This document shows positions 1,465 through 16,422 of a stretch of DNA of 64,000 nt, in pieces. The DNA is from Sulfolobales archaeon HS-7 (lineage in GTDB: Archaea; Thermoproteota; Thermoprotei_A; Sulfolobales; Sulfolobaceae). How positions within the stretch are numbered: position 1 is the stretch's first letter; every line of letters begins with the position of its first letter. Made by a program: the position numbers and the translations under genes. The notes below the pieces were generated by a model, which worked only from the letters and a program-made list of their open reading frames with translations, had not been told where the DNA came from and made no database searches. The stretch covers positions 320,001-384,000 of the forward strand of contig AP024596.1 in the NCBI GenBank assembly GCA_019704295.1, in the 5' to 3' direction.

Positions 1465-2277
1465 ATGGAGTATAGGCCCCTCTGTAAGAAATGTGATAAA
1501 GTATCTGTGGTAGGTATGGGAACCTATTACGATCCCTTATGGATCGTTTTATCTAGATTTAACGTATTCAGAGGCGCGGAGGAGAAGGTAAAGGCAATTA
1601 AAGCGGGTATAGAACACGGGATAAACTTCATAGATACCGCAGAGTTATACGGTTCAGAGCACCTGGTTAGAGAGGCAATAAAGGAGTATAAAAGGGATCA
1701 ACTCTTCATAGCTACAAAGGTTTGGAGAAGTCATCTCAAAAGGGAACAGGTGTTAAAGGCGATTGATGGCAGTCTAAGGAGGTTGGGCCTAACTTACGTT
1801 GACCTATACCAGATTCACTTCCCTAGCTATACAGTCCCGATAGAGGAGACAATACATGCGATGGAGGACCTTGTCGATAAGGGTAAGGTACGTTACATCG
1901 GTATAAGCAACTTCTCTCTTGAAAAAATGAAAAAGGCCGTCGAATCATTTAGGAAGTACGAATTGGCATCGACCCAAATGAATTACAGTCTAGCTAACAG
2001 GGAGATCGAGAGGGATATAATCCCCTTTTGTAGAGAGAACGGAATAGGTGTAATAGCCTACTACCCACTAGGTCACGGGAAGTTAATACGGAACAGGGAG
2101 GTCAATGACGTTGCAAAGAGATTAGGGAAGACGCCAGCTCAGGTCGTCCTTAACTGGGTGATAAACAAAGGGGCTTTTCCCATACCCAGAGCGTCTAGGG
2201 AAAGTCACGTAATAGACAACGTGTTAAGCGCTGGTTGGGAACTTTCACCCGAGGATATAAGGCAGCTGGAGTCGTGA
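1465..2277 (+). CDS. Aldo/keto reductase
   Basis: GINFIDTAELYG, IATKV, YVDLYQIHFP, GISNF, TPAQVVLNW, PIPRAS motifs. Confidence 0.95.
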   Translation: MEYRPLCKKCDKVSVVGMGTYYDPLWIVLSRFNVFRGAEEKVKAIKAGIEHGINFIDTAELYGSEHLVREAIKEYKRDQLFIATKVWRSHLKREQVLKAIDGSLRRLGLTYVDLYQIHFPSYTVPIEETIHAMEDLVDKGKVRYIGISNFSLEKMKKAVESFRKYELASTQMNYSLANREIERDIIPFCRENGIGVIAYYPLGHGKLIRNREVNDVAKRLGKTPAQVVLNWVINKGAFPIPRASRESHVIDNVLSAGWELSPEDIRQLES

Positions 2278-2420: not shown

Positions 2421-5012
2421 CTATTTGAAGAAGCTATCCAGTGTTACTTGATTATCATCTATCCTCTTATTGCATATTTGAAGTAGATATTCTTTACTTG
2501 CTTTCTTCTCCTCATCGTCTGGACCGTGCACGGAGAGTATTTCGGCTATATTACATAATTCCTGTGGTGAAAATGTGAAAATTGTTGAGGTAATCTCTTT
2601 CTCGACTCCCTTCTTTCCCTCTTCTTCGAAACGTCTGAGTAAGTAATGATAAGCGTCTATAATTATCCTTTCTTTGTTTCCAAACCTGACCCTGTTCTTA
2701 AAGTTCAGTAACTCAATATCCGATTTCTCTTTACCAGAGGATCTCTTTATAATTCCTTCTTTCTCTAAGTACTCAACACTCAAATCTGGGAAACCCCTTG
2801 TAAGGTTAATTAGCTCGTCACTTGAAATAACTACTTTTATACCTTTACTATCCTTTCTAATATATATGTCAGATACCCTGGTGAAAAGGTAAAGTTTAGT
2901 CACCGAATCCATGGCAGAAATGTTTTTATTTGTCATAAAGTTGACAATTTTAACTGGAGCAACCTCATAGACCATCTCTATGACGCTATCAAATGGTTTC
3001 ACATCCTTTCTCTTCGCCAAAAGATTAGAGTACTGAGTCGCAACGCTAAGTGATGCCCCTATACCTGCTAGCATGATATCAGCCCCTTTATACCCCTTTT
3101 CAATAGCTCTCTTTATAGAGGTAGTAATCGCTCTCTCAATATCGCTTTTAAGGTCTTCGACGAAAGCTTGTCTGTCCTCCTTCCGCTTCCTCAATACCAT
3201 TACAACTGATGTCTGCATAGCTACCTTTCCACGACTTACGGAGGAGCTCTCTTGCTCTGTATGAACAGGTATCGTATTGGAAATCGTGAAACCGGATTCC
3301 ACTATAGCTTGAAGCACTGAGATCCAGAACTCTGGCCTTTTATGAGCATAGAACATTGCAATAATCCCATCGTCTTTAAGCACTCTTTTCATGAAGTTTA
3401 GAACGGTTTTAAATTTCATTTCAAAAAAATTCCTATTTCTCCCTGGTCCTACGCTCATCTCCTCCATTGATCTTTCTCTCCATAATGACGAAAAATGGAA
3501 ATTTTCCGGATACACGTCTTCAAGGACAGGTTTCATTAGTGCGTAGAAGAAATCCGAGATCTCGGCGTATTGCACGTCGTCATAGTAGGGGGGATCTGTC
3601 ACGATAAGGTCAATTGAACCATCTGAGATTGGTAGATCTTCTGCACTTTTCATCAAAAGAGTGTAATTTGGGTTATCTTTGACTCTCTCTTGTATGAATG
3701 CACATGCCTCAACAATATCACAAAACATAGACCAAAGCGAACCTGAGAAAAGGGAGAAAGGGTTGACTTCAACGACATTCCACGTCATTGCGGGTCTTCT
3801 GAATGCCATAGTGTCCCCTACAACGACGTAGGATGAATGCCAGTGGGTTAAGAACGAATTATGATCTCCATGTTTGCTCACTAAAAATGAGAGATATAGT
3901 CTAAGCATCGCTTCTTCTTTAGGTACTTGTTTTCTAATTTCCTCTATAAGCTCGGAAAGAACCTTTAGCTGACGTTTATTAAACATTTCTGCATAGTTAC
4001 GAAAACCATATCTTGATGCACTTACCACTTTATCCTGTATTACCTCTACGTTTATAGGAGATTCAGAAACTTGAGGGAGATTGGAATCTTCTGGTCTAGC
4101 TAAATGAAATTCCTTGTCCTCGGTCATTATGATCAAGAGTCTTGCCCTGTTAGGTTCTTTACTGATTTTACTTACTAATTCTTTCTCTGGAATTGAATAG
4201 TTGCACCTAGGGCACATTACTTCCTTGTTAGATGCTTTCGTAGGAGAAGCTTTAGTCTCACCTTCTTCAATTTCTACGATGTAATCGTCTCCTTTATATT
4301 CTATTGAGAGGTAAAGCTTCTCTTTCGACTTTACCTTCTTCAAATACCAACTAGATGTAATGGGAATTTTAGCTCCACAATTAGGACAGTCCGTCTCTCT
4401 AAACCATAAATACGCAGCCACTCTTTTACCATTAAAATCTGGGAACAGCTTTTCGTTCTTTTGTTTAACGCCTAAAATGATCTTGCATCCTAAGTCGACA
4501 AGCTTTCCTAACTTCGATTTATCCTCCTTTGTACAGACATCTTCCATGTCAACGGTAAATCCTCTTTTATACTTCTTAGAGATTCTTTCCCATTCCTTAA
4601 CATTTACTAGCTCCTCTCTTATATCAAGAGCCTTTAACAAGGCCCACGCCACAGGGTTATAGTCGTTTGCGATGACTTTTAGACCAAGTCTTAAGCCTTC
4701 AAATGGTATTGACCCTCCACCAGCGAATGGATCCAAGAGAGTAAGATTTTCAAATCTTTTTATAACATCCTTAGGAATAGGATTTTCTACTGTAGCTTCG
4801 TTTCCTTTTATCATTAGTCTGATAAACTCCTCATCATTGTCCAGAATCGAGCCTAAGATCATAGCCCTGGAAACTACTAAAGGTTTCCTCGCCCACCAAA
4901 AATTTAGTTCACTAATAGGATATCTCCCCCCTGTCTTTTCCCTTCTTGCTTCTTCATTTATCTTCTCTAGCTCAGGTAATCCCCTTTCTATTAGCTTTCC
5001 TCCTTCGGGCAC
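2421..5012 (-). CDS. DUF1156-containing adenine-specific DNA methyltransferase with Zn-ribbon
   Basis: WWARKPL (DUF1156), DPFAGGGSIP (motif I), CPNC/CPRC Zn-ribbon, TDPPYYD (motif IV). Confidence 0.92.
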   Translation of the reverse strand: MPEGGKLIERGLPELEKINEEARREKTGGRYPISELNFWWARKPLVVSRAMILGSILDNDEEFIRLMIKGNEATVENPIPKDVIKRFENLTLLDPFAGGGSIPFEGLRLGLKVIANDYNPVAWALLKALDIREELVNVKEWERISKKYKRGFTVDMEDVCTKEDKSKLGKLVDLGCKIILGVKQKNEKLFPDFNGKRVAAYLWFRETDCPNCGAKIPITSSWYLKKVKSKEKLYLSIEYKGDDYIVEIEEGETKASPTKASNKEVMCPRCNYSIPEKELVSKISKEPNRARLLIIMTEDKEFHLARPEDSNLPQVSESPINVEVIQDKVVSASRYGFRNYAEMFNKRQLKVLSELIEEIRKQVPKEEAMLRLYLSFLVSKHGDHNSFLTHWHSSYVVVGDTMAFRRPAMTWNVVEVNPFSLFSGSLWSMFCDIVEACAFIQERVKDNPNYTLLMKSAEDLPISDGSIDLIVTDPPYYDDVQYAEISDFFYALMKPVLEDVYPENFHFSSLWRERSMEEMSVGPGRNRNFFEMKFKTVLNFMKRVLKDDGIIAMFYAHKRPEFWISVLQAIVESGFTISNTIPVHTEQESSSVSRGKVAMQTSVVMVLRKRKEDRQAFVEDLKSDIERAITTSIKRAIEKGYKGADIMLAGIGASLSVATQYSNLLAKRKDVKPFDSVIEMVYEVAPVKIVNFMTNKNISAMDSVTKLYLFTRVSDIYIRKDSKGIKVVISSDELINLTRGFPDLSVEYLEKEGIIKRSSGKEKSDIELLNFKNRVRFGNKERIIIDAYHYLLRRFEEEGKKGVEKEITSTIFTFSPQELCNIAEILSVHGPDDEEKKASKEYLLQICNKRIDDNQVTLDSFFK

Positions 5013-5047
5013 AGTTAAAGATAAATCAAGAGAGATTATTATTATTT
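5013..5047. promoter_or_regulatory. 35-bp divergent intergenic region, probable overlapping bidirectional TATA promoters for methylase and DUF499 ATPase
   Basis: GTG start of methylase at 5012 (-) and ATG at 5048 (+); AT-rich TTAAAGATAAA on + and ATAAATAATAAT on - each lie ~25-30 nt from the respective start. Confidence 0.5.
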
Positions 5048-8000
5048 ATGGAAATGAAGGCAGTATGGGAAGCCAATAAACCCTCTCAGGACATACTCTC
5101 AAGCTCTCTTTCCGAAGATCAATTTGGAATAGAAATAAGTAATGTCGTACGTGGAAAAGCTCCAAAAGTCTACCTAGATCCCTTCGAGTTCTTTAGGAGG
5201 ACGTACTTTACCAAATCACTATCAAGGATACTTAAGGACGCGATACTCACAGTGACTAATGGCACCGGTACTCCTATTTACGCTGTTTTGACAAGTTTCG
5301 GGGGAGGGAAGACTCACATACTTATAGCTCTTTACCACTTCTTTAAGGCTAATAAAAAGCAGGAGCTATTGTCTATCTCCTCAATTTCGTCTTTACTTGA
5401 TGATATCAAAACAGGTAACGTGACAATGAATATCCCTGAGGTTAACGTGGTTGTCATTGACGGATTGAATTTAGAAAAAGATGATAACCTCTTTCAATAC
5501 CTATCCAGATCACTCAAATCGGACGTTGATCTTAGCGATCCTACTGAACAGAAAATGTCCTTTATGCTGGAAAAAGCTGCTCCCACAGTAATTTTGATAG
5601 ATGAGATCGGGGAATATATTAGGAAGCTCGACACCTATCAGAGAACGAACAAAATCCAGGAGGTTTTGCTCTTTTTCAGATTACTGACTTCGGCTATCAC
5701 AAGTAGAACAAGAACGTTTCTCCTAGTCACGTTGACCGATGAGACTTTACCTCCAGAGCTCAGGAGTTACATCAGTGATATCGCTAAAATCCTCTCGCGT
5801 TACGTTAACCCACTAGAACCTACAACCCGAGAGGAGGTAGTAGAGATCATCAAAGCAAGGCTTTTCGAGTACATCGATAAAAACAACGGTGATAAAGTTT
5901 CCTCGTTTTTCTCATCTTATTATACTAAGTTCAAAGACTACTATCCTGCAGAGGCGTCAGAATATTACTATAAAATGATAAAATACTATCCGTTTCATCC
6001 TACTTTAATAGATACATTGTATGGAAGGATATCAACAATTCCCGGCTTCCAAAAGACCCGACATACACTTAGGTTTCTAGCTTACGTTGTAAGGGAAGTG
6101 TGGAAAAAGAAGGAAAAAGATGCGTATTTAATAGGATTAGATTCGGTTGACCTGAGCAATTCGGATATTCTGAATAGTCTTTTAAACAACATAGGAAGAG
6201 ATGCGCTTTCAACTGTTGCAAAGTTCGACATCGAGTCTGACAAAGGGGGGAAAGCCAAAGGAATGGGCTTAGATCACTTGCTTACAGCTAGGGTGATCTT
6301 CATGGGATCTATCATAGGTACAGACCAACCCCTAGATAGGAACGCATTTAGAAAAAGCGACATCCTTTTAGGTCTGACTAACGTAATTCAAAAGGTTAAC
6401 CCAGGGTGGATTGACACAGTTCTAAAAGACCTTACAGACAAGCTCTGGTATATCTATACGGACAATGTAGATAGATATTGGTTTGCTACAACGCCCAACA
6501 TAAACAAGGCTATAGAGGATACGAAAGCTAATGTTAAGTCTGAACGGGTGGACAAAATAAGGGAATATCTGGAGGAGTTTCAGAGAGATTTCAAGAGAGA
6601 ATTTGAGGGATTCGAAGTCAGAGTAGACACTGATTTAGAGGACCTAGATGATCCGAAATTACGTTTAATCATTATAGACCCCTCCGTAGAGGGCTCCAGC
6701 CTAACGATAAGTTACGAGGGAGGTGACATAGAACCCCCTCAGAAATTGCTAAGTTATTTTAACGTGAGGTCTTATAAGAACACTGTAATATTTATTGTTC
6801 CTAGTAGAGTCTATTTCGAGAAAGCTCTAGATGAAGCGGCTACAATAGTTGCGTTAGAGAGATTAGAAAGTCTGGAGTCAATGAATCAGTACAGTAAGGA
6901 GTTGAAACAGAAGAAAGCGGATTACGACGCGAGATTAAGGTTCTCCCTAGTTAATGCCTTCAGTTTTATTTTTTACCCAGTTTCAAAGGAGGGCTGTAGA
7001 TTAGAAGGTGAAAAAATACAGCCCGACGTTTATACCAAGGACGTTTCCTTAACTTCAGAGAAATTAGCTAAAAAGGCGATGGAAACTTTAGAGAGCAAAA
7101 CTAAGGTCATAAGGAAGTCAGACGATGTAACTGATGAATATCTCAAATACATATTTAGTTTAAAATCTGAACGTATAGCTGTAAAGGAATTTCTGGATAA
7201 TCTGAAGAGAAGGTGCGACGCACCAATAATTCCCGATGGAACGACCCAAATTGACTTAATTAAGAGAGCGGTATCTAAAGGATACGTAAGTTATAAGTCT
7301 GCTGATGGGCTCCTTACTAACTTAAAGGAAATATCTAAGGAGATAGGGAAGAGAGACGGTATTAACGTAGATGTAATACAGCTCATTGCGGAAGGCTCCA
7401 AACTTGGATTGGAAATAGCTAAAAAAATGAAACAAAAATTCGATAACGAAGCTATTGAGGTTAAAGATGACGGGTTCCTAATAAACAATGAAGAAGTGAT
7501 CAATGAGGTTAAGACGTATTTGCCGCCTTTAATTGAAGAGATCGAGAAGAAAAAAATTCACCAAACTCCCGACGTTAACAAAATCGAAAGCCAATCCGTT
7601 TCCCCACAAGATATTTTCAAGCAGGAGAGAAGGGAGGAGATATCATTAGACGACTTAGACAATATAATAAGTGAAGGTTTCAAAGTCGAAATAAGAAACG
7701 TCGTAGTTACCATTAACAATTATCAAGATTTCTCTGGTTCAGTATCCAGTCTTGGTCTTATAATATCTGGTATTAAAGTACATGACCCTAAAATTAGCAT
7801 AAGTGTTACACAGACTTCCAGGGATTCGCAGCGTAAACTCTCCCTAGAGTTAAACACTGATTTAGAAAATTTTCAAAGAATAATTCAATTTTCAAGAGAT
7901 ATTGTAAATAACTCATTTAGAAACGGATTAGTTAACCTAAATTTTAGGCTTGGTATAGAATTGACAGAATATAAGATAAAACAAAATGATGATTTCATAA

Positions 8001-8074
8001 AAAATCTGAAAGGGCTGAAGCCGAAAGAACAGGAAGGAATTCACGTGAAACTAAATGTGATCGTAACGAAATGA
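5048..8074 (+). CDS. DUF499 family AAA+ ATPase (BrxC/PglY-related)
   Basis: Walker A TSFGGGKTH, Walker B ILIDE, YPFHP, GFQKTRHTLRFLA; start moved from 4946 to ATG 5048 to avoid overlap with the divergent methylase. Confidence 0.9.
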   Translation: MEMKAVWEANKPSQDILSSSLSEDQFGIEISNVVRGKAPKVYLDPFEFFRRTYFTKSLSRILKDAILTVTNGTGTPIYAVLTSFGGGKTHILIALYHFFKANKKQELLSISSISSLLDDIKTGNVTMNIPEVNVVVIDGLNLEKDDNLFQYLSRSLKSDVDLSDPTEQKMSFMLEKAAPTVILIDEIGEYIRKLDTYQRTNKIQEVLLFFRLLTSAITSRTRTFLLVTLTDETLPPELRSYISDIAKILSRYVNPLEPTTREEVVEIIKARLFEYIDKNNGDKVSSFFSSYYTKFKDYYPAEASEYYYKMIKYYPFHPTLIDTLYGRISTIPGFQKTRHTLRFLAYVVREVWKKKEKDAYLIGLDSVDLSNSDILNSLLNNIGRDALSTVAKFDIESDKGGKAKGMGLDHLLTARVIFMGSIIGTDQPLDRNAFRKSDILLGLTNVIQKVNPGWIDTVLKDLTDKLWYIYTDNVDRYWFATTPNINKAIEDTKANVKSERVDKIREYLEEFQRDFKREFEGFEVRVDTDLEDLDDPKLRLIIIDPSVEGSSLTISYEGGDIEPPQKLLSYFNVRSYKNTVIFIVPSRVYFEKALDEAATIVALERLESLESMNQYSKELKQKKADYDARLRFSLVNAFSFIFYPVSKEGCRLEGEKIQPDVYTKDVSLTSEKLAKKAMETLESKTKVIRKSDDVTDEYLKYIFSLKSERIAVKEFLDNLKRRCDAPIIPDGTTQIDLIKRAVSKGYVSYKSADGLLTNLKEISKEIGKRDGINVDVIQLIAEGSKLGLEIAKKMKQKFDNEAIEVKDDGFLINNEEVINEVKTYLPPLIEEIEKKKIHQTPDVNKIESQSVSPQDIFKQERREEISLDDLDNIISEGFKVEIRNVVVTINNYQDFSGSVSSLGLIISGIKVHDPKISISVTQTSRDSQRKLSLELNTDLENFQRIIQFSRDIVNNSFRNGLVNLNFRLGIELTEYKIKQNDDFIKNLKGLKPKEQEGIHVKLNVIVTK

Positions 8075-8199
8075 ACTCCTACTTTTTAAGGAAAATTACT
8101 AATTTATATATAACGTTAATAAAACTAAAATTCTCTCGGTCATAAGAGAAGGACCGTGAGCTAAAACGTTCTCTTATTACAGATCATTTCCTAACTACT

Positions 8200-8470
8200 A
8201 TAATCTATGAAAATGGTAAGGAGCCTTCCGCGGGGAAGACGCGCGCCACCAGCGCAAGGATTAGTAAGTCCATACAAAGGCTTAATCCTAAGAGGTTCAA
8301 GTTACTCAAGATAGGAACGTCAAGGACTATAACGTTGACGCAAGTGACGTTCTGGACTTGCCATTCTCATAGCTGTGTTAGAGGCCAAGTAGGTAAAGCC
8401 TCTATGAAGAATGCTCAGGATTACCTAGGGTGAGTCTCTCTTGATTATACATCCAGAGCGGAAGTTCAGC
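8200..8470 (+). mobile_element. Possible heavily decayed IS200/IS605-type remnant inside the defence island
   Basis: GC-richer non-coding patch in an AT-rich spacer; ends in CAGAGCGGAAGTTCAG, resembling Sulfolobales IS605 right ends; only short broken ORFs. Confidence 0.25.
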
Positions 8471-8542
8471 TCTTTAACCCTTGTGATGATAATATTTTCA
8501 TGCCCACTCTCTTATATATGCTGATCTCAACTAGGTGAGAAG

Positions 8543-8887
8543 ATGGCTCTTAAAGAGGTATATGACGTATTTGAAATCAGTGTAAACAAAAAGAATGTGT
8601 GTCTCTATTTCAAGGGGGAAAATGTTAAAGTAAAGTACTCGTGTTGTTCTAGGGATTACATGAAGTACATAAATATCCTAGAAGAGAGGAAAGTAATCCC
8701 TGAAGCAGAGTTTAGAAAAGTTGCTAGACTTTTCATCTTGATGAAAGTATTGCCTTACACCAAATCCAAATACAAAGCGGTCGACATAGTTAGATCATTA
8801 CCCGATATGGAGGTATCCTTCTGGTTTTCCAAGTTCTCAGCATTAGGAAATAGGGCAGTGTCTTCCTTCATGAAACTCTACCTCTGA
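8543..8887 (+). CDS. Small accessory protein of DUF499/DUF1156/SNF2 systems (DUF3780/DUF7680-like)
   Basis: 114 aa; C-terminal LPDMEVSFWFSKF...RAVSSFMKLY resembles the E-x3-W helix motif of the small gene in these clusters; GGTGA RBS upstream; genomic context. Confidence 0.6.
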   Translation: MALKEVYDVFEISVNKKNVCLYFKGENVKVKYSCCSRDYMKYINILEERKVIPEAEFRKVARLFILMKVLPYTKSKYKAVDIVRSLPDMEVSFWFSKFSALGNRAVSSFMKLYL

Positions 8888-8888
8888 T

Positions 8889-11800
8889 TTAAAAACTCTC
8901 ACTGGTAACGTGATTTGACTGTAGGTATTTCAGGAGATCCGTGTAGGGAATTTCCACCTTCCTCTGAGTTTTCATGTATTTTTGCTGATATAGGAACTCC
9001 CTGAGGGATGCAGCCGGGTTCTTGACCTCCCAGACTTTCTTGCTCGCCAGATCTGCTATGTATAAATAAAAGTGCTCCCTCATATCCCCCCCATAGCCGT
9101 GGAGTTTTGCCTTAGTAAACCTACCCCTATAAGTCCTATTATTGGGGTCCATCGCCATTAACTCAACGGGGGTTATATTGATCTTGCTCCAATTTCCTTG
9201 GACAGTCTTGACCTCAATGTATTTGACCTCGTCATTACATATACTTAAAAAGTCAAACCCTGCAGTGAAAACATCCCTCATGTCAATTACGTCACATCCC
9301 TTATTTTGCTCTAACCTATTCACGATCTCCTCTCCCTCTGAACCCTGATTTAAGAACTCCTTCATGGAGTTCACGTCCGCGTTTCCAGTTATGTCTGAGA
9401 ACCCTTCGGGTAACAGTCTAATCCCTGCTATGAGTTTTGAATCTGTATATATTTGGGCATAGTTGAAGAGGTCTGCTACGGTGCTTTTTCTACTAAATAG
9501 TTCATCTAAATTATCTGTCATTGAAGATCGTCTCTTTTCAATGTTAGCGATTTCCTGATCAATCACGTCAGTTACTTCCTGAAATATCTGATTCTTTCTA
9601 TATTCAATTTCTGTCTTAATCTGTTCCTCAACTTCCCTTATCTTTTTCTTAACTTCAGGTTCATCAGCTATAACTAGAAATTCCGATCCACACTCATCTA
9701 TGACAGCAGTAAGGGAATTGATGAATGAAGTCTCTACTCTCTTCACCTTTTTATTGACCTCATCGTATAATATTGCTATAAGCTTCTCCTTCTCAAGCTT
9801 CTTCTTGTAGAACATCCCTTCCGTGACTCTTCCGTTTACGGGAACCTCATCAGATTCACCCTTTACTTCAAAAAGTAGAAGCCAACCCATGAAACGCTTA
9901 TTTTCGGCAGTAAATGAAATAGGGTATGAAGATGGCTTCAAAAGGTCTATAAGAGCTCTAACCAGAGGATGAGTCGGGTATATATAGTTGCACTCCTTTA
10001 CCCTTTTACATTCATCAAAGCGAAAAGAAGCATTACTTACAATTAGATTTTCAGCATCTTTCACGCCTTTAGGAGGCCTTATGTCGTAAAGGAGTGGGTT
10101 TATCCTACTCCGAATTGGGGGGACTCCATAAGCTTTCAAGGTTTCTGTTACAAACATTTCCACTTCCTCCTCCGTCACTTCTTCCTTTTCATCGCATGAA
10201 GGGTCCAAATTACTAAAACTGTAAGACAAGTTATATTCGTTCCATTCCTTAGCTGTTCTTTCGGCTTTTCTTAACAGCGAGTCGATCTTTTTCTCTATCT
10301 CTTGATTCCTAAAGGTTTCGTCTGGGTTTTTTACAGTTGTTTCCCTTATAACCTTCTCTATGTCTTTGTCCGAAACTGCCACTCCAAGGTAATCGTAGAC
10401 TTTTCCTAATGTGTCCTTAATGATATCCAATTTGTTCATGAGTATTTCGAGAACATGAGAGTCTATGGTCTCCTCTGTGTAAACGTTATACGTCAACACC
10501 TTTTTCTTCTGTCCGTATCTGTGAACCCTTCCTATCCTCTGGTCAAGTCTGGTCGGATTCCAGGGAAGATCATAGTTTATTACTACGTTGGCCACTTGCA
10601 AATTCAGCCCTTCGGAGGCGACGTTAGTCGCAATTAAGACGTCCTTTCCCTCAATGAAATCTGTTTCAGCTCTCTTTCTCTCCTCAACTCCCATCTTTCC
10701 GTGTACGATGGACACTCTAAACTTGTCTTTCCATCTCTCATTCAGGTAAAATAGTGTGTCTCTAAACTCCGTAAAAACTATGACCTTATCTCCACGACTT
10801 ACGTGTTCCTCTATTACCTTTTCAACCTTTTCAAGCTTGGAGTCCTTGGCAATTCTACCTCCTTCGTCGATCAAGTCATCTAACCTGGATATCTCACGTG
10901 ACAGTTCTTCCTTGTTTCTACTCAAAGTGACTTCCTGGACTATACGTCTTTCGTCTATCCCTTTTTGGTGTTGATCGGAAGGATTTTGACCTTTATTAAC
11001 TATTTCTCCTAGCTTATTCCTTCTCTTCTTCAGGGTCTGCAAAAGGGAATTGAGGGAGGAGGAGGCCCTTTTTTGAATTACCATTGCTACTAAAGCATAA
11101 GCCTTAGACTTTCGTCTGTCGCTCTCTCTCATCGAGGCCATGTAGTAATCTCTTATATATTCATTAACTTTATCGAAGAAGTTCCTCTCTTGATCACTTA
11201 GAGTAACCTTTATGATCTTAGATTCTCTATCCGGTATAAGCCTATTATCATTGAAGTCTCTTACCTCTTCCCTCAACCTCCTGATCATAATTTCGTTTAA
11301 CACCACGTTTACGTTTGACTCAGTAACAAATGGATCGATCAATCGCAACCTATGAATGAAATCCTTGGTCTTTCCATGATGAGGGGTGGCGGTAAGTAGT
11401 ACTATGTTAAGAAATGGATCGCTAAGCAAAAGTCTTTCCGCCCCAGCGTACCTCTTTGTTCTACTGATTTTTTCCCTCTCTTCCCGTACTGTGAGATTAT
11501 GCGCCTCGTCTATTATTATCAGATCCCATTTCCCTTTCAACAAGGACTCTACTGCTTTTTTCTTGCCCAAGAGCCCCATGGAAAGGATAAAGTTTCCTGG
11601 ATGTTGATTAGGCGATAAGTCAGATGCCTCTTTAGTGCTTGATATTATTTTAAAGTCCAGATTAAACTTCTCCTTCATCTCTCTTTGCCACTGGAATAGA
11701 AGGGATTTTGGACAGATTACAAGGACGTTATTGGCTCTCTCCCTACTCTTTAGTTCTTTTATTAACATACCCATCATGATAGTCTTTCCAAGTCCGACAT

Positions 11801-11984
11801 CATCGGCAACTAGAAATCTTATAGGGTCGTGTCTGAGCATGTTTTGAACGGCGATCAACTGATGCGGAAGAGGATCGACCTTAGAAGGAACTGAAGTAGT
11901 GCAAGCCTCTTCGAAGGCAAAATGATGCAATCTTATTGCCTCAACTCTAAGGTAATTCAGAAGGGCCTCGCTTTCCCTATTCAT
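8889..11984 (-). CDS. SNF2-family helicase fused to C-terminal DUF3883 (NOV)-like PD-(D/E)XK nuclease
   Basis: PLPHQ, ADDVGLGKT, DEAH, LTATPH, ASEGLNLQ, PWNPTRLDQRIGRVHRYGQ; C-terminal GEE...GFDFLS...YIEVK. Confidence 0.92.
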   Translation of the reverse strand: MNRESEALLNYLRVEAIRLHHFAFEEACTTSVPSKVDPLPHQLIAVQNMLRHDPIRFLVADDVGLGKTIMMGMLIKELKSRERANNVLVICPKSLLFQWQREMKEKFNLDFKIISSTKEASDLSPNQHPGNFILSMGLLGKKKAVESLLKGKWDLIIIDEAHNLTVREEREKISRTKRYAGAERLLLSDPFLNIVLLTATPHHGKTKDFIHRLRLIDPFVTESNVNVVLNEIMIRRLREEVRDFNDNRLIPDRESKIIKVTLSDQERNFFDKVNEYIRDYYMASMRESDRRKSKAYALVAMVIQKRASSSLNSLLQTLKKRRNKLGEIVNKGQNPSDQHQKGIDERRIVQEVTLSRNKEELSREISRLDDLIDEGGRIAKDSKLEKVEKVIEEHVSRGDKVIVFTEFRDTLFYLNERWKDKFRVSIVHGKMGVEERKRAETDFIEGKDVLIATNVASEGLNLQVANVVINYDLPWNPTRLDQRIGRVHRYGQKKKVLTYNVYTEETIDSHVLEILMNKLDIIKDTLGKVYDYLGVAVSDKDIEKVIRETTVKNPDETFRNQEIEKKIDSLLRKAERTAKEWNEYNLSYSFSNLDPSCDEKEEVTEEEVEMFVTETLKAYGVPPIRSRINPLLYDIRPPKGVKDAENLIVSNASFRFDECKRVKECNYIYPTHPLVRALIDLLKPSSYPISFTAENKRFMGWLLLFEVKGESDEVPVNGRVTEGMFYKKKLEKEKLIAILYDEVNKKVKRVETSFINSLTAVIDECGSEFLVIADEPEVKKKIREVEEQIKTEIEYRKNQIFQEVTDVIDQEIANIEKRRSSMTDNLDELFSRKSTVADLFNYAQIYTDSKLIAGIRLLPEGFSDITGNADVNSMKEFLNQGSEGEEIVNRLEQNKGCDVIDMRDVFTAGFDFLSICNDEVKYIEVKTVQGNWSKINITPVELMAMDPNNRTYRGRFTKAKLHGYGGDMREHFYLYIADLASKKVWEVKNPAASLREFLYQQKYMKTQRKVEIPYTDLLKYLQSNHVTSESF

Positions 11985-12076
11985 AACAAGAGATTCATTT
12001 GAGGATTTTTATGGTTTTCTTACAGTTTTATTTCAGCTTTAAATACGAACAAAAGATCACAGATATCTGAAAAAGC

Positions 12077-12096
12077 TTTCCCTATTGTTAGGGAAA
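12077..12096. promoter_or_regulatory. Perfect 8-bp inverted repeat (TTTCCCTA-ttgt-TAGGGAAA) upstream of the helicase-nuclease gene; possible operator
   Basis: Read directly from sequence, ~95-110 nt upstream of the helicase start; function inferred. Confidence 0.3.
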
Positions 12097-12379
12097 AATG
12101 GGAAGATTTACGTTAGTGACGAAGCGGAATCCGTGTAATTCTGCTAACAGGGGAATTGGAATAACGTAATTCGGATTTTTTGTATATTCATGAACATATT
12201 TCACGTAAACCTTACAATAGTAAATAAAATACGAAGCTTTCAGAATTAAAAAAGACAAGGTTATATTAATGAAAGTAAAAAGTTGATCGTGCAGACCACC
12301 AATTTCTCTACTTGTAAGTCTCTTTTTTTACGCCTCTTACAGACGTAGCACACAAGGTAAAGCGGTTTTGAAAGTGATG

Positions 12380-12600
12380 AAAGGTGACAAGTTAGGAGAT
12401 ATGAGCAGGCAAATGAGGGTCGAGTCATTATCTAGAATAAGGTATCCTTATCGATGAGGAGTCCTATCTCAGGGGAGCTGATGCGCTTTCTCTATGACAT
12501 TATGAGAGCTGGAAAAGTCCTCCCACAGAAACGAAGGTTGTGTCTGACAAGGTAATTATACTAGATAGTGAAAGGGTAATCGCAGGGACTTTTATCGAGA
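12380..12600 (+). pseudogene. Decayed ABC-transporter ATP-binding subunit fragment
   Basis: Frameshifted fragments KLGDMSRQM (signature-like), LIDE..GADALS (Walker B/D-loop-like) and VSDKVIILDSERVIAG occur in the expected order. Confidence 0.4.
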
Positions 12601-12708
12601 TTTTCCTTTCCTCGGACTTAAGGACGGCAAACTCCGCTTACTTTATCGCCAACTCCTGAGGATAGGTCCTGACATTAGGGGTCGCTCTTTCCTTGTCATG
12701 ATATACCT

Positions 12709-12881
12709 ATACGGAGTAAGGTAATCAACGACCCTGCAAGGAGATTAGGGGAGCCGCCTGCTCAGGTTGCCATTAACTGTGCATTCAGTGAGAGTTCCCC
12801 CATACCTAAGGCGTCTAAGGAAGTCACTTCATAGATAACGCGTTAAGCGTGGATCGTGAACTTTCGCGTCACGACGTAAGG
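12709..12881 (+). pseudogene. Degenerate copy of the 3' end of the aldo/keto reductase gene (matches 2086-2262)
   Basis: Translates IRSKVINDPARRLGEPPAQVAINC...PIPKASKE versus IRNREVNDVAKRLGKTPAQVVLNW...PIPRASRE; collinear nucleotide similarity with indels. Confidence 0.8.
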
Positions 12882-12960
12882 TTACCGAATCATTATCGTG
12901 TTTCGTTAAACCGATTGTTACTAATATTTAATAGTTATCGGGACGAGTTGAATCTGTGTT

Positions 12961-13755
12961 ATGGAAACTGAGAACGTAATAAGAGATCTTGCACAAAGGT
13001 TCGTGAAGGAGGATCCGGCGAGGGCTATTGCAGAGGCAACGAGGACGAGGTATCTCTTTCTCGATTTTTTGGACTCGCTCAGAGGGAGGATCAAAGAACT
13101 TGATAAGTTAAGGTTTGAGATTCTCCTGGACGCTATAAAAGACGACGTAGAGTATCAGGACGTACTTGCTGAGGCGATCTCGTGGGAAATTAACCGAGTT
13201 GACGACAAAGACGCGTTAAATATTATAAACATAATTTCGCCTCTTCCATATCTTTTTCGAAGAGTTTGGTGTAATCTGGGAGAAAACTACTTTTCTAGAA
13301 GGGTCTACCTCATGGCACTAAAAATGAGTGCTTCACGATATCTGGGCTGGGGAGCAGGTAAGGGGTTCGTGAATTACGACAACGACGGTCTCCTGAAAAC
13401 TGTAGAAGTGGATAACGAATTTGCTGTAGGATTTGGGATTGGGACGGGTTTAAGTGTAGAGCTCCTGACCGATGAGAAATTAAGGAAAATACTCCAAATA
13501 AGAAATGAGACTTTGCATGTGACCTTCGCCTCGACTATAGTGTTGAGGGCTAACCACATCCCCTTTTCAACACTTATGAGTCTCATCTCACTTTCCAATT
13601 CGTACGAGAACTTCGGCAGAAGCTTTGGACTCCTCCTTTCTTTATACTACCCTCATCTTAAAAAGGACATAAAGGAAAAACTAGACATGTACTGCAGATT
13701 CAATAGTGGAAATCCCTTTTTGGAGGGATTTACTGACGTCCTGTTGAAGGATTAG
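12961..13755 (+). CDS. Hypothetical helical protein with Gly-patterned repeats
   Basis: 264 aa ATG ORF; LGWGAGKG, FAVGFGIGTG, FGRSFG motifs; overlaps the convergent acyl-CoA synthetase by 26 nt. Confidence 0.6.
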   Translation: METENVIRDLAQRFVKEDPARAIAEATRTRYLFLDFLDSLRGRIKELDKLRFEILLDAIKDDVEYQDVLAEAISWEINRVDDKDALNIINIISPLPYLFRRVWCNLGENYFSRRVYLMALKMSASRYLGWGAGKGFVNYDNDGLLKTVEVDNEFAVGFGIGTGLSVELLTDEKLRKILQIRNETLHVTFASTIVLRANHIPFSTLMSLISLSNSYENFGRSFGLLLSLYYPHLKKDIKEKLDMYCRFNSGNPFLEGFTDVLLKD

Positions 13756-15544
13756 CGGCCCTCTTTATTTCCTCCACAGAATCCGGATTCTCTAGAGAAG
13801 TGGAATCCCCTATTTCCTGACCCAAGTATATCCTTTTTATTAACCTCCTGAGGATCTTGGCATTTCTCGTCTTTGGAAGGGATCTCACGAAAATAACCTC
13901 CTTAGGGGCTAAGGGCTTTCCTATCTTGTCCTCCACGTATTTCCTGATCTCCTCCGGAGTGGAATTCCCCTTACTTACGACGAAGCAGATCGGTACCTCC
14001 CCTTTTACTGGATCTGGAACTCCTATACACGCAGATTCCACCACGTCCACATGGGTATTAACTATTGCCTCTATTTCCCCAGGTCCCAGCCTCTTCCCTG
14101 CCACCTTTATTACGTCGTCGCTCCTACCCGTTATGTAATAGAACTTACCGTCAAATATCGCCATATCTCCGTGGATCCATACGTCTCCCCTCCAATAAGT
14201 TTCAATGTATTTTTGGGGATTTCTCCAAAATCCGCGAGTCATCCCCGGCCAGGGTGCAAGTACGGACAGATAACCTTCCGAACCCCTAACAGGTCTTAAC
14301 TCCTCGTCTAGGACATCGACTTTCATTCCGGGAGAAGGGCCGTTAAATGACGCAGGGGCAATGTCCTTTACTACGTAACACCCCAAGATTCCTCCGGAAA
14401 TTTCCGTACCACCTGAGTAATTTATAAGGGGAGTATTGAGGTTATCCACTATATATCTCCAGGATGACTCGTCAAGTGGTTCCCCTGTTGAACCGACTAT
14501 CCTAGGAGGATTTTGCATACGAGGCTTACCTAAGGACTTCTGCATTCTAATAAGCGTTGGAGATAGACCCAATACTGATACCTTGTGGTAATCCACTACC
14601 TCCCAGAGATCTTTAGGAGTCCCGTCGAATAGGAAAATGGAGGAACCTAGGGTAATAGCGTTGAATATAACCCAAGGCCCCATCATCCATCCGAAATCCG
14701 ACATCCATGTTATCACATCACTTTCCTTTATGTCAAAGTGGAAATACCCATCTGCAGCTGCCTTAATGGGAAATCCCGCATGTACATGTACAGTCCCCTT
14801 TGGTTTTCCCGTCGTTCCTGATGTATATATTACCATAAGTACGTCCTCGGCACTGGTTTCCTCTATGTAATCTCCTCCCGTTTTGTAAACTTCAGAAAGC
14901 TGAGGATTTTCCTTATCTAGTCCTAACCTATCGTGAACTATAATCTTACCCGAAAAAGCCTCCCTTGCGTTATCTATCATTCTTATGATTTTCCCCTTTC
15001 TGATATTTCCGTCTGTGGAAAAGAGAAACTTGGCACCTACATCGTCAAGTCTTACCCTCATTAGCTCAGGTCCGAATCCCGAAAAAAGAGGTACTATAAC
15101 GCCCCCCGCCCTAGCTATACCGAAAACTACGGGGAGCAGATCCTTTGAGTAACTCATGTAAACGCCTACCCTATCTCCCTTCTCCAGCCCGTTCCTTTTC
15201 AACCAAGAAGCCACGGATTTAGCCTTACTCGCCATCTCGGAATAGGATATGGAACCCTTATTTCCCTCTTCGTCCTCCCAGCGCACGTACCCATTAGTGT
15301 CAGGAATGTTTCCGAGGTTGAACTTCCCCCCTATGAACCATTTAGCCCACTGTATCCCCTGTGAAGTATCTAGCACCTTTGAAAAGGGAGAAAACCAAGG
15401 GATCTTAATGCTTTTCGCGAACTCGCCCCAAAAAGCCTCTGTCAGTGAATAGGACAAAAAATCGTCTAGTGATTTGAGGTCGTGAGATTCCATAAAACGC
15501 TTTAGATTTGATTTTCTTACAACTTCCTCATCAGGCGTCCACAT
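13730..15544 (-). CDS. AMP-forming acyl-CoA (acetyl-CoA-like) synthetase
   Basis: YTSGTTGKPKG, SGGTE, GRSDDVIKVAGKR, PKTRNAK; start placed at ATG 15544, coupled to the upstream TGA. Confidence 0.92.
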   Translation of the reverse strand: MWTPDEEVVRKSNLKRFMESHDLKSLDDFLSYSLTEAFWGEFAKSIKIPWFSPFSKVLDTSQGIQWAKWFIGGKFNLGNIPDTNGYVRWEDEEGNKGSISYSEMASKAKSVASWLKRNGLEKGDRVGVYMSYSKDLLPVVFGIARAGGVIVPLFSGFGPELMRVRLDDVGAKFLFSTDGNIRKGKIIRMIDNAREAFSGKIIVHDRLGLDKENPQLSEVYKTGGDYIEETSAEDVLMVIYTSGTTGKPKGTVHVHAGFPIKAAADGYFHFDIKESDVITWMSDFGWMMGPWVIFNAITLGSSIFLFDGTPKDLWEVVDYHKVSVLGLSPTLIRMQKSLGKPRMQNPPRIVGSTGEPLDESSWRYIVDNLNTPLINYSGGTEISGGILGCYVVKDIAPASFNGPSPGMKVDVLDEELRPVRGSEGYLSVLAPWPGMTRGFWRNPQKYIETYWRGDVWIHGDMAIFDGKFYYITGRSDDVIKVAGKRLGPGEIEAIVNTHVDVVESACIGVPDPVKGEVPICFVVSKGNSTPEEIRKYVEDKIGKPLAPKEVIFVRSLPKTRNAKILRRLIKRIYLGQEIGDSTSLENPDSVEEIKRAANPSTGRQ

Positions 15545-15963
15545 CAGGCCTTTCCCACTACAAGAGGCCATTCCCACTTAATTACCTTGACTTTATCACC
15601 CTCCTTGGCGTCTCCTTCAACTCGGACAATTATTCCTCCCTTCGCGTTGAGGAATCTAATTATTCCTACCTTTATCGGCTTTTCCAGTTTGTTTCCGTAA
15701 CTGTCCTCCCTCACCTCAGTCAACAGGTCTAGATAAGGTTCTGTAAGCTCTACGTAATTTCCTTCCGTCATATCCTCAGGACAATAGTCCCGGGGGGGTA
15801 CGTATACCTTACCGCTACTGCACTTAATCCCGTAGAACTTCCCCTCCTTAATTCCTTCAATGAACTTCTTCCCCGCATTCCCTTCATCATATTCATACGC
15901 CTCTACCTCCATATTACCTTTCCAGAAGATCAAGTCCTCTATTCTTCCCTTCTTACTCCACAC
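15544..15963 (-). CDS. DUF35 Zn-ribbon/OB-fold protein
   Basis: KFIEGIKEGKFYGIKCSSGKVYVPPRDYCP; thiolase-associated context. Confidence 0.85.
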   Translation of the reverse strand: MWSKKGRIEDLIFWKGNMEVEAYEYDEGNAGKKFIEGIKEGKFYGIKCSSGKVYVPPRDYCPEDMTEGNYVELTEPYLDLLTEVREDSYGNKLEKPIKVGIIRFLNAKGGIIVRVEGDAKEGDKVKVIKWEWPLVVGKA

Positions 15964-15966
15964 TTT

Positions 15967-16422
15967 TCACACCTCCTTAAAACATTGAATATCCTCTATG
16001 CTTCCTACTCTCTTCTCATTCCACACGGCTTTAACTTTTGCCCCAATGATAGACATGTCCCTAACTTTATCATACGTGGTACAGATCCTATGAAACATTC
16101 CCGGAAACACGTAGTCTCTCTCCGAACCGTACAACTTTATAGTGCCTGAGATGATGGGTTCCTCTAATCTATCCCTTGTCCAGGAAACAAAGGATGCAAT
16201 TGCCGTGTGTACTATCCCCTCGTCCTTTAATTCGACCCATCCGTCCGTTGGCTTAAAGCATTCCTCGCAGTACATCTTAGGTGGGACATAGACCTTTTTG
16301 CACTTATTACACACCGTACCCAAAATCTTCTTCTCCTTAAGGCCATTTAAAAAGACGCTTTGCGCTTGGCCTGCGGAGTAAGAGTATTTAGCCTTTGGAA
16401 CGTATCTTATCATGTATTTCAC
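15967..16422 (-). CDS. DUF35 Zn-ribbon/OB-fold protein
   Basis: FLNGLKEKKILGTVCNKCKKVYVPPKMYCEEC. Confidence 0.88.
   Translation of the reverse strand: MKYMIRYVPKAKYSYSAGQAQSVFLNGLKEKKILGTVCNKCKKVYVPPKMYCEECFKPTDGWVELKDEGIVHTAIASFVSWTRDRLEEPIISGTIKLYGSERDYVFPGMFHRICTTYDKVRDMSIIGAKVKAVWNEKRVGSIEDIQCFKEV

What the first reader, a model, noticed from the sequence alone, without database searches (positions are those of the whole stretch)
2421..11984. Four-gene restriction-like defence system in a Sulfolobales archaeon (DUF1156 MTase, DUF499 ATPase, small protein, SNF2-nuclease)
Seen: intact catalytic motifs in an N6-adenine-type methylase, a BrxC/PglY-like ATPase and an SNF2 helicase with a C-terminal PD-(D/E)XK nuclease, plus a 114-aa gene. 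Known: bacteria carry a 'restriction-like' anti-phage system of DUF499, DUF3780, DUF1156 and a helicase-nuclease. Inference: this is a thermoacidophilic archaeal variant with a C-terminal DUF3883-type nuclease. It would methylate self DNA and attack unmethylated viral or plasmid DNA. I know of no experimental characterisation in Sulfolobales; it is the best candidate for an undescribed system here.
Basis: partly seen in the sequence, partly recalled or inferred. Interest (0 to 1): 0.85.

Follow-up and report, generated by a model that had tools for sequence, protein, structure and literature searches.

The report
Archaeal Hma defence locus, four genes
This is an intact but rearranged copy of a known anti-virus gene set (Hma, also called a BREX-related system), and its small fourth gene belongs to a conserved partner family that the papers I could search do not describe.

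Summary
The four ORFs exist as described and all catalytic motifs are intact. The locus is not an undescribed system. It is an Hma system (PADLOC 2021), also called a Type-1 DUF499-centred BREX-related system (NAR 2026). It has HmaB (a DUF1156 N6-adenine methylase), HmaC (a DUF499 AAA+ ATPase) and HmaA (an SNF2 helicase with a NOV_C/DUF3883 PD-(D/E)XK nuclease). Hma is already annotated in Saccharolobus islandicus, and a bacterial HmaA has been tested against phage T4.

The new part is the 114-aa gene. It is a short, divergent member of a basic small-protein family that sits directly after hmaC in 28 of 37 loci examined in this archaeal order. Seven more loci carry a different small gene in the same slot. 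The family is distantly related to Pfam DUF7680 (hhalign 94%), which follows DUF499 on bacterial plasmids. HmaA here lacks the usual N-terminal Tudor domain.

I infer, by analogy with MANTIS MtsA/MtsB, that the small protein helps HmaC load or activate the methylase.

In this copy hmaA is inverted and a mini-transposon separates hmaC from the small gene. The 10.4-kb island lies between two copies of a reductase gene's 3' end. Earlier scan notes on other genomes had seen a similar small helper gene.

The parts
2421..5012 (-). hmaB: DUF1156-type N6-adenine DNA methyltransferase, 863 aa, GTG start. Motif I FAGGGS is at 4710-4727 and motif IV DPPY at 3585-3596. A Zn-finger-bearing target-recognition insert lies between them (CPNC 4377-4388, CPRC 4203-4214).
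   Evidence: Pfam DUF1156 1.3e-13 and N6_N4_Mtase 3.7e-8. PADLOC HmaB 7e-69. NCBIfam DUF1156_antiphage 6e-61. Motif positions.
5013..5047 (.). 35-bp A/T-rich divergent intergenic region between hmaB and hmaC. It is presumed to hold back-to-back archaeal promoters for leaderless transcripts (inference from sequence only).
   Evidence: Sequence read.
5048..8074 (+). hmaC: DUF499 ORC/Cdc6-like AAA+ ATPase, 1008 aa from ATG 5048. Walker A GGGKT is at 5300-5314 and Walker B LIDEIG at 5594-5611. It has no HEPN N-terminal domain.
   Evidence: PADLOC HmaC 3e-81 and DUF499 5.5e-36. NCBIfam DUF499_antiphage 7e-45. The nearest homologue is 54% identical and the next is 36%.
8226..8412 (+). Copy of a dispersed repeat of about 185 bp, inserted between hmaC and the small gene. 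The repeat has at least 24 copies in this genome at 69-80% identity. An earlier scan note calls it a gene-less IS110 mini-element.
8543..8887 (+). Small basic accessory gene, 114 aa, pI 9.5. It is a short, divergent member of the family that follows hmaC in archaeal Hma loci and a distant relative of Pfam DUF7680. A TATA-like TTATATAT lies at 8512-8519 and GGTGAG at 8534-8539.
   Evidence: blastp to the positional equivalents in G131 and G009. Leave-one-out profile score of 24.1 bits, per-sequence E 3.6e-9. Alignment A2. hhalign A3 vs DUF7680 at 94.4%. AF2 pLDDT 76.
8889..11984 (-). hmaA: SNF2 helicase with Helicase_C and a C-terminal NOV_C/DUF3883 PD-(D/E)XK nuclease, 1031 aa. It has no N-terminal Tudor domain. 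It is convergent with the small gene, with the two stop codons 1 bp apart. The nuclease D is at 9249-9260, E-V-K at 9207-9218 and the extra E at 9162-9173.
   Evidence: Pfam SNF2-rel_dom 1.3e-22, Helicase_C 3.9e-30 and NOV_C 2.6e-6 (27.8 bits against a 22.1 cut-off). The PADLOC HmaA match (7e-109) starts at profile position 79. Alignment of the nuclease block.
2086..2277 (+). 3' end of the intact aldo/keto reductase gene (1465-2277). This is the left copy of the direct repeat that brackets the island.
   Evidence: Pfam Aldo_ket_red 2e-67. Repeat D1. blastn.
12709..12865 (+). Decayed direct copy of the reductase 3' end. It is 73% identical in nucleotides over 161 nt (E 4e-21), and a frameshift is visible at the protein level. 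It marks the right edge of the 10.4-kb island, whose GC is 39.2% against 42-44% in the flanks.

Best explanation
The locus is a horizontally acquired Hma (Type-1 BREX-related) restriction-like defence system in its archaeal four-gene form.

Shown here:
- The three Hma proteins are intact, with all catalytic motifs.
- A conserved small basic protein is encoded directly after the DUF499 ATPase gene in most related archaeal loci.
- That family is distantly related to DUF7680, which holds the same place next to DUF499 on bacterial plasmids.
- HmaA lacks the Tudor domain found in loci that have no small gene.

Inferred, by analogy with the biochemically defined sister system MANTIS and with the tested Halomonas HmaA:
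- HmaC, an ORC/Cdc6-like AAA+ ATPase, works with the small protein to load and activate the HmaB methylase on short asymmetric sites. HmaB hemimethylates adenines on host DNA.
- The same recognition complex on unmodified invader DNA recruits or activates HmaA.
- HmaA translocates on DNA with its SNF2 motor and nicks or cuts with its PD-(D/E)XK domain.

In this genome the cassette has been rearranged. hmaA is inverted, and a mini-IS separates hmaC from the small gene. The genes must therefore be transcribed from at least three promoters.
For: - PADLOC, Pfam and NCBIfam assign the three large proteins to HmaA, HmaB and HmaC. The motifs are intact.
- In 201 genomes of the order, DUF499, DUF1156-methylase and NOV_C hits co-localise in many genomes.
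- The small-gene profile hits 30 genomes, and nearly all of those hits lie directly downstream of the DUF499 gene.
- Of 37 loci examined (the window plus 36 fetched), 35 have a small ORF in the hmaC-hmaA slot. 28 belong to this family and 7 to a second basic family.
- The two loci without a small gene have HmaA with 50-90 extra N-terminal residues.
- The family consists of stand-alone proteins only: 98 clusters among 1.84 billion representatives.
- hhalign against DUF7680 gives 94.4% probability, E 9e-8. DUF7680 genes directly follow DUF499 on Rhodococcus, Nostoc and Picosynechococcus plasmids.
- In MANTIS, MtsA plus MtsB are required for MtsC methylation, and its authors suggest other proteins fill the MtsB role in related systems (bioRxiv 10.64898/2026.09.23.753747).
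- The nuclease of Halomonas HmaA is needed for T4 defence (PMC11232893).
- The island signature is described.
Against: - Nothing about this locus has been tested experimentally.
- The window's small ORF is the shortest and most divergent member: 114 aa against a median of 141, about 15 N-terminal residues missing, and low AF2 confidence in its first half. It is cut off from hmaC by a repeat insertion, so it could be decaying.
- The Pfam DUF7680 model does not detect any archaeal member.
- Homology to DUF3780/MtsB could not be tested.
- In Halomonas, HmaA alone protected E. coli, so the system logic of Hma is unproven.
- The opposite-strand layout is atypical. Published curated Hma sets require all genes on one strand.
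Confidence: 0.8

Rival explanations
1. It is an archaeal variant of the MANTIS/Gao_RL system (Type-2 BR: DUF499, DUF3780, DUF1156, PLD-helicase).
For: It has the same ATPase and methylase families, and a small gene sits directly after the DUF499 gene, as MtsB does. A Rhodococcus plasmid has DUF499-DUF7680-DUF1156-PLD/SNF2, so DUF7680-type small proteins can serve PLD-type systems as well.
Against: The helicase has no PLD/HKD domain and carries a C-terminal NOV_C nuclease. The PADLOC PLD_Helicase and NCBIfam phospholipD_antiphage models match only the helicase core. DUF3780 was not detected in the ORF, in 26 family members or in 201+301 genomes, although that model rang nowhere, including the controls.
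Confidence: 0.07
2. The cassette is a rearranged remnant that no longer works as a system. hmaA may still act alone, as Halomonas HmaA does, and the small ORF is a decaying relic.
For: hmaA is inverted relative to all 36 related loci fetched. A mini-IS sits between hmaC and the small gene. The small ORF is truncated and divergent. HmaA alone defended E. coli against T4 (PMC11232893).
Against: All three large ORFs are full length, with every catalytic motif and no frameshift. The small ORF is open and keeps the family's C-terminal motif and a TATA-like box 27 nt upstream. A nuclease without its methylase partner would be a hazard, so both being intact suggests continued selection.
Confidence: 0.15
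3. The 114-aa ORF is unrelated cargo or a chance ORF, and the system has three genes.
For: A word-based search of 5.8 billion proteins found no homologue. There were no Pfam, PADLOC or NCBIfam hits. 62.7% of Hma loci carry unrelated embedded genes (bioRxiv 2024.01.29.577857).
Against: The profile built without it scores it at 24 bits, per-sequence E 3.6e-9. blastp hits the positional equivalents in two other genomes. The shared FW[FY]SK...SF.KLY motif is present. The position after hmaC is conserved.
Confidence: 0.08
4. The locus serves a housekeeping epigenetic or chromatin role rather than defence.
For: Hma genes in S. islandicus are cell-cycle regulated (PMC12216602). SNF2 and ORC/Cdc6-like proteins have chromatin roles.
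Against: The cassette is patchy among relatives, present in 9 of 27 family genomes sampled. It sits in a low-GC island bracketed by a target duplication. It carries a nuclease. The family has shown anti-phage activity.
Confidence: 0.03

Closest known systems
Hma system (HmaA/HmaB/HmaC; Payne et al. 2021, PMC8565338), also called the Type-1 DUF499-centred BREX-related system (PMC12839542)
   Same: The three core families and domain contents match: an SNF2 helicase with Helicase_C and a C-terminal NOV_C PD-(D/E)XK nuclease, a DUF1156 N6-adenine methylase with a nested TRD and Zn finger, and a DUF499 AAA+ ATPase.
   Different: HmaA lacks the N-terminal Tudor domain. A conserved DUF7680-like small gene follows hmaC. 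The genes lie on both strands (B-, C+, small+, A-) instead of forming one operon. The proteins are only about 25-37% identical to the nearest genome relatives.
MANTIS / Gao_RL (MtsA-D), also called the Type-2 BR system (bioRxiv 10.64898/2026.09.23.753747)
   Same: A DUF499 ATPase and a group-alpha DUF1156 methylase (motif I FxGxG, motif IV DPPY), a small basic co-factor gene directly after the ATPase gene, and a helicase-nuclease effector. It is the only relative with a worked-out mechanism.
   Different: The MANTIS effector has an N-terminal PLD/HKD nuclease, and its small protein is DUF3780. Here the nuclease is a C-terminal PD-(D/E)XK and the small protein is DUF7680-like. Homology between the two small families was not tested.
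Hma of Saccharolobus islandicus REY15A (PMC12216602)
   Same: It is from the same archaeal family. By locus tags the order is methylase (RS03035), ATPase (RS03030), an unnamed gene, then helicase (RS03020). This fits the B-C-small-A layout seen in five Sulfolobaceae loci (L042-L045, L061).
   Different: In that Sulfolobaceae type, the helicases I examined lack the D/E-x-K nuclease motif and are followed by a metallo-beta-lactamase/RMMBL nuclease gene. The window has an intact NOV_C nuclease and no such gene. I could not confirm that these loci include REY15A itself.
Archaeal COG1743 -> DUF499 -> SWI2/SNF2-nuclease -> EVE systems (Bell et al. 2020, PMC7641849)
   Same: The same core genes, plus a small stand-alone accessory protein proposed to read DNA modification.
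   Different: The small protein here gives no EVE/PUA hit in Pfam. Its confident model, a beta-sheet plus a four-helix bundle, found no EVE, YTH or ASCH structure.
Type-3 BREX / DISARM
   Same: The helicase scores well against the BrxHI/BrxHII (3e-94 and 5e-88) and DrmD (1.5e-86) models, and the methylase scores weakly against PglXI.
   Different: The island contains no PglZ, BrxA/B/F, DrmA, DrmB or DrmC genes. Its only ORFs of 60 aa or more outside the frames of these genes are the four described.

Membership tests
Hma / Type-1 BR system | HmaA: an SNF2-family helicase with Helicase_C and a C-terminal NOV_C (DUF3883) PD-(D/E)XK nuclease | tested here: met
   Pfam SNF2-rel_dom, Helicase_C and NOV_C are all above their cut-offs. 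PADLOC HmaA 7e-109. The D...E-V-K...E residues align with relatives.
Hma / Type-1 BR system | HmaB: a DUF1156 N6-adenine methyltransferase with a nested TRD | tested here: met
   Pfam DUF1156 and N6_N4_Mtase. PADLOC HmaB 7e-69. FAGGGS and DPPY are separated by a 370-aa insert with a 4-Cys finger.
Hma / Type-1 BR system | HmaC: a DUF499 AAA+ ATPase | tested here: met
   PADLOC HmaC 3e-81. NCBIfam DUF499_antiphage 7e-45. Walker A and B motifs are present. The Pfam DUF499 model itself gave no hit at E<=0.01, but homologues carry PF04465.
Hma / Type-1 BR system | The three genes are adjacent, with at most a few embedded genes | tested here: met
   All lie within 9.6 kb, with one small gene and one mini-IS between them.
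Hma / Type-1 BR system | All hma genes on one strand (a criterion of the curated set in bioRxiv 2024.01.29.577857) | tested here: not met
   hmaB is on -, hmaC on + and hmaA on -. This is a curation filter rather than a definition of the family.
Hma / Type-1 BR system | N-terminal Tudor domain on the helicase (PMC12839542) | tested here: not met
   The HmaA profile match starts at position 79. The frame is open for only 8 codons upstream. GLGKT is at aa 64, against 116-155 in loci without the small gene.
Hma / Type-1 BR system | Protection against viruses or plasmids, with self-methylation | not testable with these tools
   No sequencing runs were listed for this DNA.
MANTIS / Gao_RL / Type-2 BR | Helicase with an N-terminal PLD/HKD nuclease (MtsD) | tested here: not met
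   No PLDc hit. The PLD_Helicase and phospholipD_antiphage models match the helicase core only.
MANTIS / Gao_RL / Type-2 BR | A DUF3780 protein (MtsB) | tested here: inconclusive
   PF12635 gave no hit in the ORF or in family members at E<=1, and none in 201 and 301 genomes. The model rang nowhere, including the controls. No DUF3780 sequence or structure was available for a profile or fold comparison.
Pfam DUF7680 (PF24728) | A match to the family model above its gathering score | tested here: not met
   No Pfam hit for any of the 14 small proteins of this family that I scanned. The PF24728 search of 201 genomes found none of them.
Pfam DUF7680 (PF24728) | Remote homology and the same genomic position, directly after a DUF499 gene | tested here: met
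   hhalign A3 vs three DUF7680 proteins gives 94.4% probability, E 9.3e-8, over 67 columns. Single-sequence comparisons give 81-87%. Positions are shown.
BREX (any type) / DISARM | PglZ, or DrmA/DrmB/DrmC, in the locus | tested here: not met
   The island holds only the four genes, and the PADLOC scan shows no such proteins among them.

The most novel reading that the evidence does not exclude
The DUF7680-like small protein is an obligate fourth subunit of Tudor-less Hma systems. It would be the functional counterpart of MANTIS MtsB: it works with the DUF499 ATPase to load or activate the methylase and to license the helicase-nuclease. DUF499 systems in both archaea and bacteria would then share a two-protein loader, whose small, fast-evolving half has been overlooked or counted as embedded cargo.
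Probability: 0.4. Interest if true: 0.6.

Novelty: new variant of a known kind. Interest (0 to 1): 0.45.

Why it matters
The system itself is catalogued, so its presence in a Sulfolobaceae genome is ordinary. The useful result concerns the small gene next to the DUF499 ATPase, which published Hma and Type-1 BR descriptions list as absent or treat as embedded cargo.

- It is a conserved partner: present in 28 of 37 loci, with a second family filling the same slot in 7 more.
- It is related to the uncharacterised Pfam family DUF7680.
- It goes with loss of the helicase's Tudor domain.

The MANTIS study showed that an equivalent small protein is essential for methylation, and asked which proteins play that role in related systems. 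This family is a concrete candidate. A genetically tractable Sulfolobales host would allow a direct test. It would also improve automatic annotation of archaeal Hma loci, where the small gene is currently called hypothetical.

Tried and rejected
- The first related-loci run on genome contigs, with HmaC, found nothing. A broad small-protein alignment was too variable to use as a query. The narrower one returned only three named loci.
- No sequencing run was listed for the locus, so there is no evidence either way on expression.
- No tRNA or Rfam family was found in the window or in the 8000-8600 gap.
- ESM Atlas look-ups of the window ORF and of a canonical member gave only chance-level neighbours.
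- The PDB sequence search with the family profile gave only E~0.6 rows, for YTH and haemoglobin.
- No EVE/PUA hit turned up for the small proteins in the Pfam scans.
- DUF3780 (PF12635) was sought in 201 order genomes, 301 phylum genomes and five plasmid records and never found. The controls were silent too, so this shows little.
- No remnant of the missing N-terminus of the small gene lies upstream of 8543.
- No gene remnant from related loci lies in the 11985-12960 or 8075-8542 gaps.
- The island has no near-identical match in the plasmid collection.
- No close relative of the genome is held (the nearest reductase orthologue is 55-58% identical), so an empty integration site could not be shown.
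- The second small family (A6) shows no significant similarity to the first or to DUF7680.


Full report
**Observation**

The region holds four intact ORFs: 2421-5012(-) 863 aa, 4946-8074(+), 8543-8887(+) 114 aa, and 8889-11984(-) 1031 aa.
- In the methylase, FAGGGS and DPPY are separated by a long insert with a CPNC...CPRC finger.
- In the ATPase, GGGKT and LIDEIG are present.
- In the helicase, GLGKT, DEAH, TATP and QRIGRVHRYGQ are present. Its C-terminal nuclease has GFDF...IEVK...TPVE.

The ATPase gene most likely starts at ATG 5048. That start is 35 bp from the divergent GTG of the methylase gene.

**Identity**

PADLOC models assign the three large proteins to HmaB (7e-69), HmaC (3e-81) and HmaA (7e-109). 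Pfam gives DUF1156, N6_N4_Mtase, SNF2-rel_dom, Helicase_C and NOV_C, all above their cut-offs. NCBIfam gives the anti-phage DUF1156 and DUF499 families below their equivalog cut-offs.

Hma (helicase, methylase, ATPase) was named in 2021 from 1,638 loci in 26 phyla (PMC8565338). Its HmaA is an SNF2 helicase with a NOV_C/DUF3883 PD-(D/E)XK nuclease. Halomonas HmaA protects E. coli against T4, and the protection depends on helicase motif VI and on the nuclease E of the EXK motif (PMC11232893).

A 2026 comparative study renames the group 'Type-1 DUF499-centred BREX-related system' and counts 2,446 taxa, 203 of them archaeal. It separates this group from Type-2, which has a PLD/HKD helicase plus DUF3780, and from Type-3, which has PglZ (PMC12839542). 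The feature it took for a novel twist, the C-terminal DUF3883 nuclease, is the hallmark of the already named Type-1/Hma.

Hma is also annotated in Saccharolobus islandicus REY15A, where its genes are cell-cycle regulated (PMC12216602).

**The fourth gene**

The 114-aa ORF had no hit in Pfam, PADLOC or NCBIfam. A word-based search of 5.8 billion proteins found no homologue. I nearly dismissed it as cargo, because 62.7% of Hma loci carry embedded genes (bioRxiv 2024.01.29.577857).

When I fetched Hma loci from genomes of the same order, blastp linked the ORF to small ORFs in the equivalent position in two genomes: 33% identity over 64 aa and 43% over 67 aa. A profile of six such proteins then hit 30 of 201 genomes, almost always directly downstream of the DUF499 gene.

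Across 37 loci (the window plus 36 fetched):
- 28 carry a member of this family between hmaC and hmaA, usually abutting or overlapping both.
- 7 carry a different basic, Cys-containing small protein in the same slot.
- 2 have none.

Those two loci have HmaA proteins with long N-terminal extensions (GxGKT at residue 116 or 155, against 47-99 elsewhere). This fits the Tudor domain described for Type-1 helicases. The window's HmaA has no such domain.

A profile built without the window ORF still scores it at 24.1 bits, per-sequence E 3.6e-9. It shares the family motif E..FW[FY]SK...R.V.SF.KLY.

The family has these properties:
- It is small: 98 clusters among 1.84 billion representatives, all stand-alone proteins and almost all of 55-207 aa.
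- Every named member is a 'hypothetical protein' of Thermoproteota.
- It is strongly basic, with a median pI of 9.8.
- A canonical member folds with high confidence (pLDDT 94) into a five-stranded beta region plus a four-helix bundle. That fold has no convincing match in the PDB.
- The window's version is shorter and folds less confidently in its first half.

**Link to bacteria**

On Rhodococcus, Nostoc and Picosynechococcus plasmids, the gene directly after DUF499 is a 142-160 aa 'hypothetical protein' that matches Pfam DUF7680 (E 5e-29 to 5e-48 for the two I scanned). Profile-profile comparison of the archaeal family with these proteins gives 94.4% probability, E 9e-8, over the C-terminal helices. 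The conserved E..[FY]W[FY][SA]K and A.R.L motifs line up.

The Pfam model itself misses the archaeal proteins. No paper in the library mentions DUF7680.

**Mechanism**

The only relative with a worked-out mechanism is MANTIS. In MANTIS:
- The DUF499 ATPase MtsA and the small dimeric, positively charged MtsB are both needed to load and activate the methylase MtsC.
- MtsC hemimethylates asymmetric 6-bp sites.
- The MtsABC complex on unmodified DNA triggers the dimeric helicase-nuclease MtsD.

The authors state that the MtsB role may be filled by other proteins in related systems. I infer the same logic here, with the small protein as the MtsB-like co-factor and HmaA as the effector. This is inference from homology and gene position. 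Nothing has been tested in this organism.

**Peculiarities of this copy**

- Strand layout. hmaA lies on the opposite strand to hmaC and the small gene, with stop codons 1 bp apart. None of the 36 related loci fetched shows this; three have only hmaB divergent.
- Repeat insertion. A 468-bp gap between hmaC and the small gene contains a repeat of about 185 bp that has at least 24 diverged copies in the genome. An earlier scan note identified this family as gene-less IS110 mini-elements.
- Promoter signals. A TATA-like box 27 nt upstream of the small gene's ATG, and A/T-rich boxes before hmaA and in the 35-bp hmaB/hmaC spacer, suggest separate promoters. This is sequence reading only.
- Integration signature. 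The whole 10.4-kb block (GC 39.2% against 42-44% in the flanks) lies between the 3' end of an intact aldo/keto reductase gene and a decayed direct copy of that 3' end (73% over 161 nt, E 4e-21). This is the signature of integration into the gene's end. No integrase remains.
- Divergence. The window's Hma proteins are only about 25-37% identical to the nearest genome relatives. The nearest metagenomic HmaC is 54% identical.

**Taxonomy**

The genome's family includes 'Sulfolobaceae archaeon RB850M'. 'Sulfolobales archaeon' is therefore supported.

**Verdict**

This is a real, intact member of a known defence family. It is not an undescribed system. The moderately novel parts are the conserved DUF7680-like small partner, which goes with a Tudor-less helicase, and the unusual rearrangement.

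Earlier notes of this scan on other genomes had already remarked on a 'small helper-like protein' in hot-spring archaeal Hma cassettes (e1-2390199). I extended this by defining the family, its distribution, its fold and its link to DUF7680.

Noticed in passing
window 8226-8412: A copy of a dispersed repeat of about 185 bp, with at least 24 copies in this genome at 69-80% identity. It sits between hmaC and the small gene.
   Followed up: partly
window 2086-2277 and 12709-12865: A direct repeat of the aldo/keto reductase 3' end brackets the defence island. The right copy is decayed (73% nucleotide identity, with a frameshift). No integrase is left.
   Followed up: yes
window 12961-13755: A 264-aa ORF just right of the island has no Pfam hit and no homologue in 20 related genomes. 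It may be further accessory DNA.
   Followed up: partly
L036 2445-3734, L041 1799-3100, L042-L049, L059, L061, L069, L070: A metallo-beta-lactamase/RMMBL (RNase J/CPSF-like) nuclease gene follows hmaA in 14 of 37 related loci. These include all five Sulfolobaceae loci whose HmaA has lost the D/E-x-K motif. It may be a replacement effector. The window lacks it.
   Followed up: partly
L062-L067, L071 (e.g. L062 6582-7022): A second, unrelated basic small-protein family (146-184 aa, with conserved Cys residues) fills the hmaC-hmaA slot in loci whose HmaC is about 1,250 aa. hhalign gives no significant similarity to the first family or to DUF7680.
   Followed up: partly
L043 1488-11029 and L044 1759-7575: Two Sulfolobaceae Hma loci carry two extra DUF1156 methylase paralogues upstream of the system's own hmaB. 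They are full length in L043 and fragmented in L044.
   Followed up: no
L075 (Rhodococcus pNSL1) 6950-16466: A bacterial plasmid has DUF499-DUF7680-DUF1156-PLD/SNF2. This is a MANTIS-like architecture, but with DUF7680 where the literature places DUF3780.
   Followed up: partly
G131 contig 1, 64223-64519: A second, weaker hit of the small-protein profile (E 2e-6) lies far from that genome's Hma locus. Its context was not examined.
   Followed up: no
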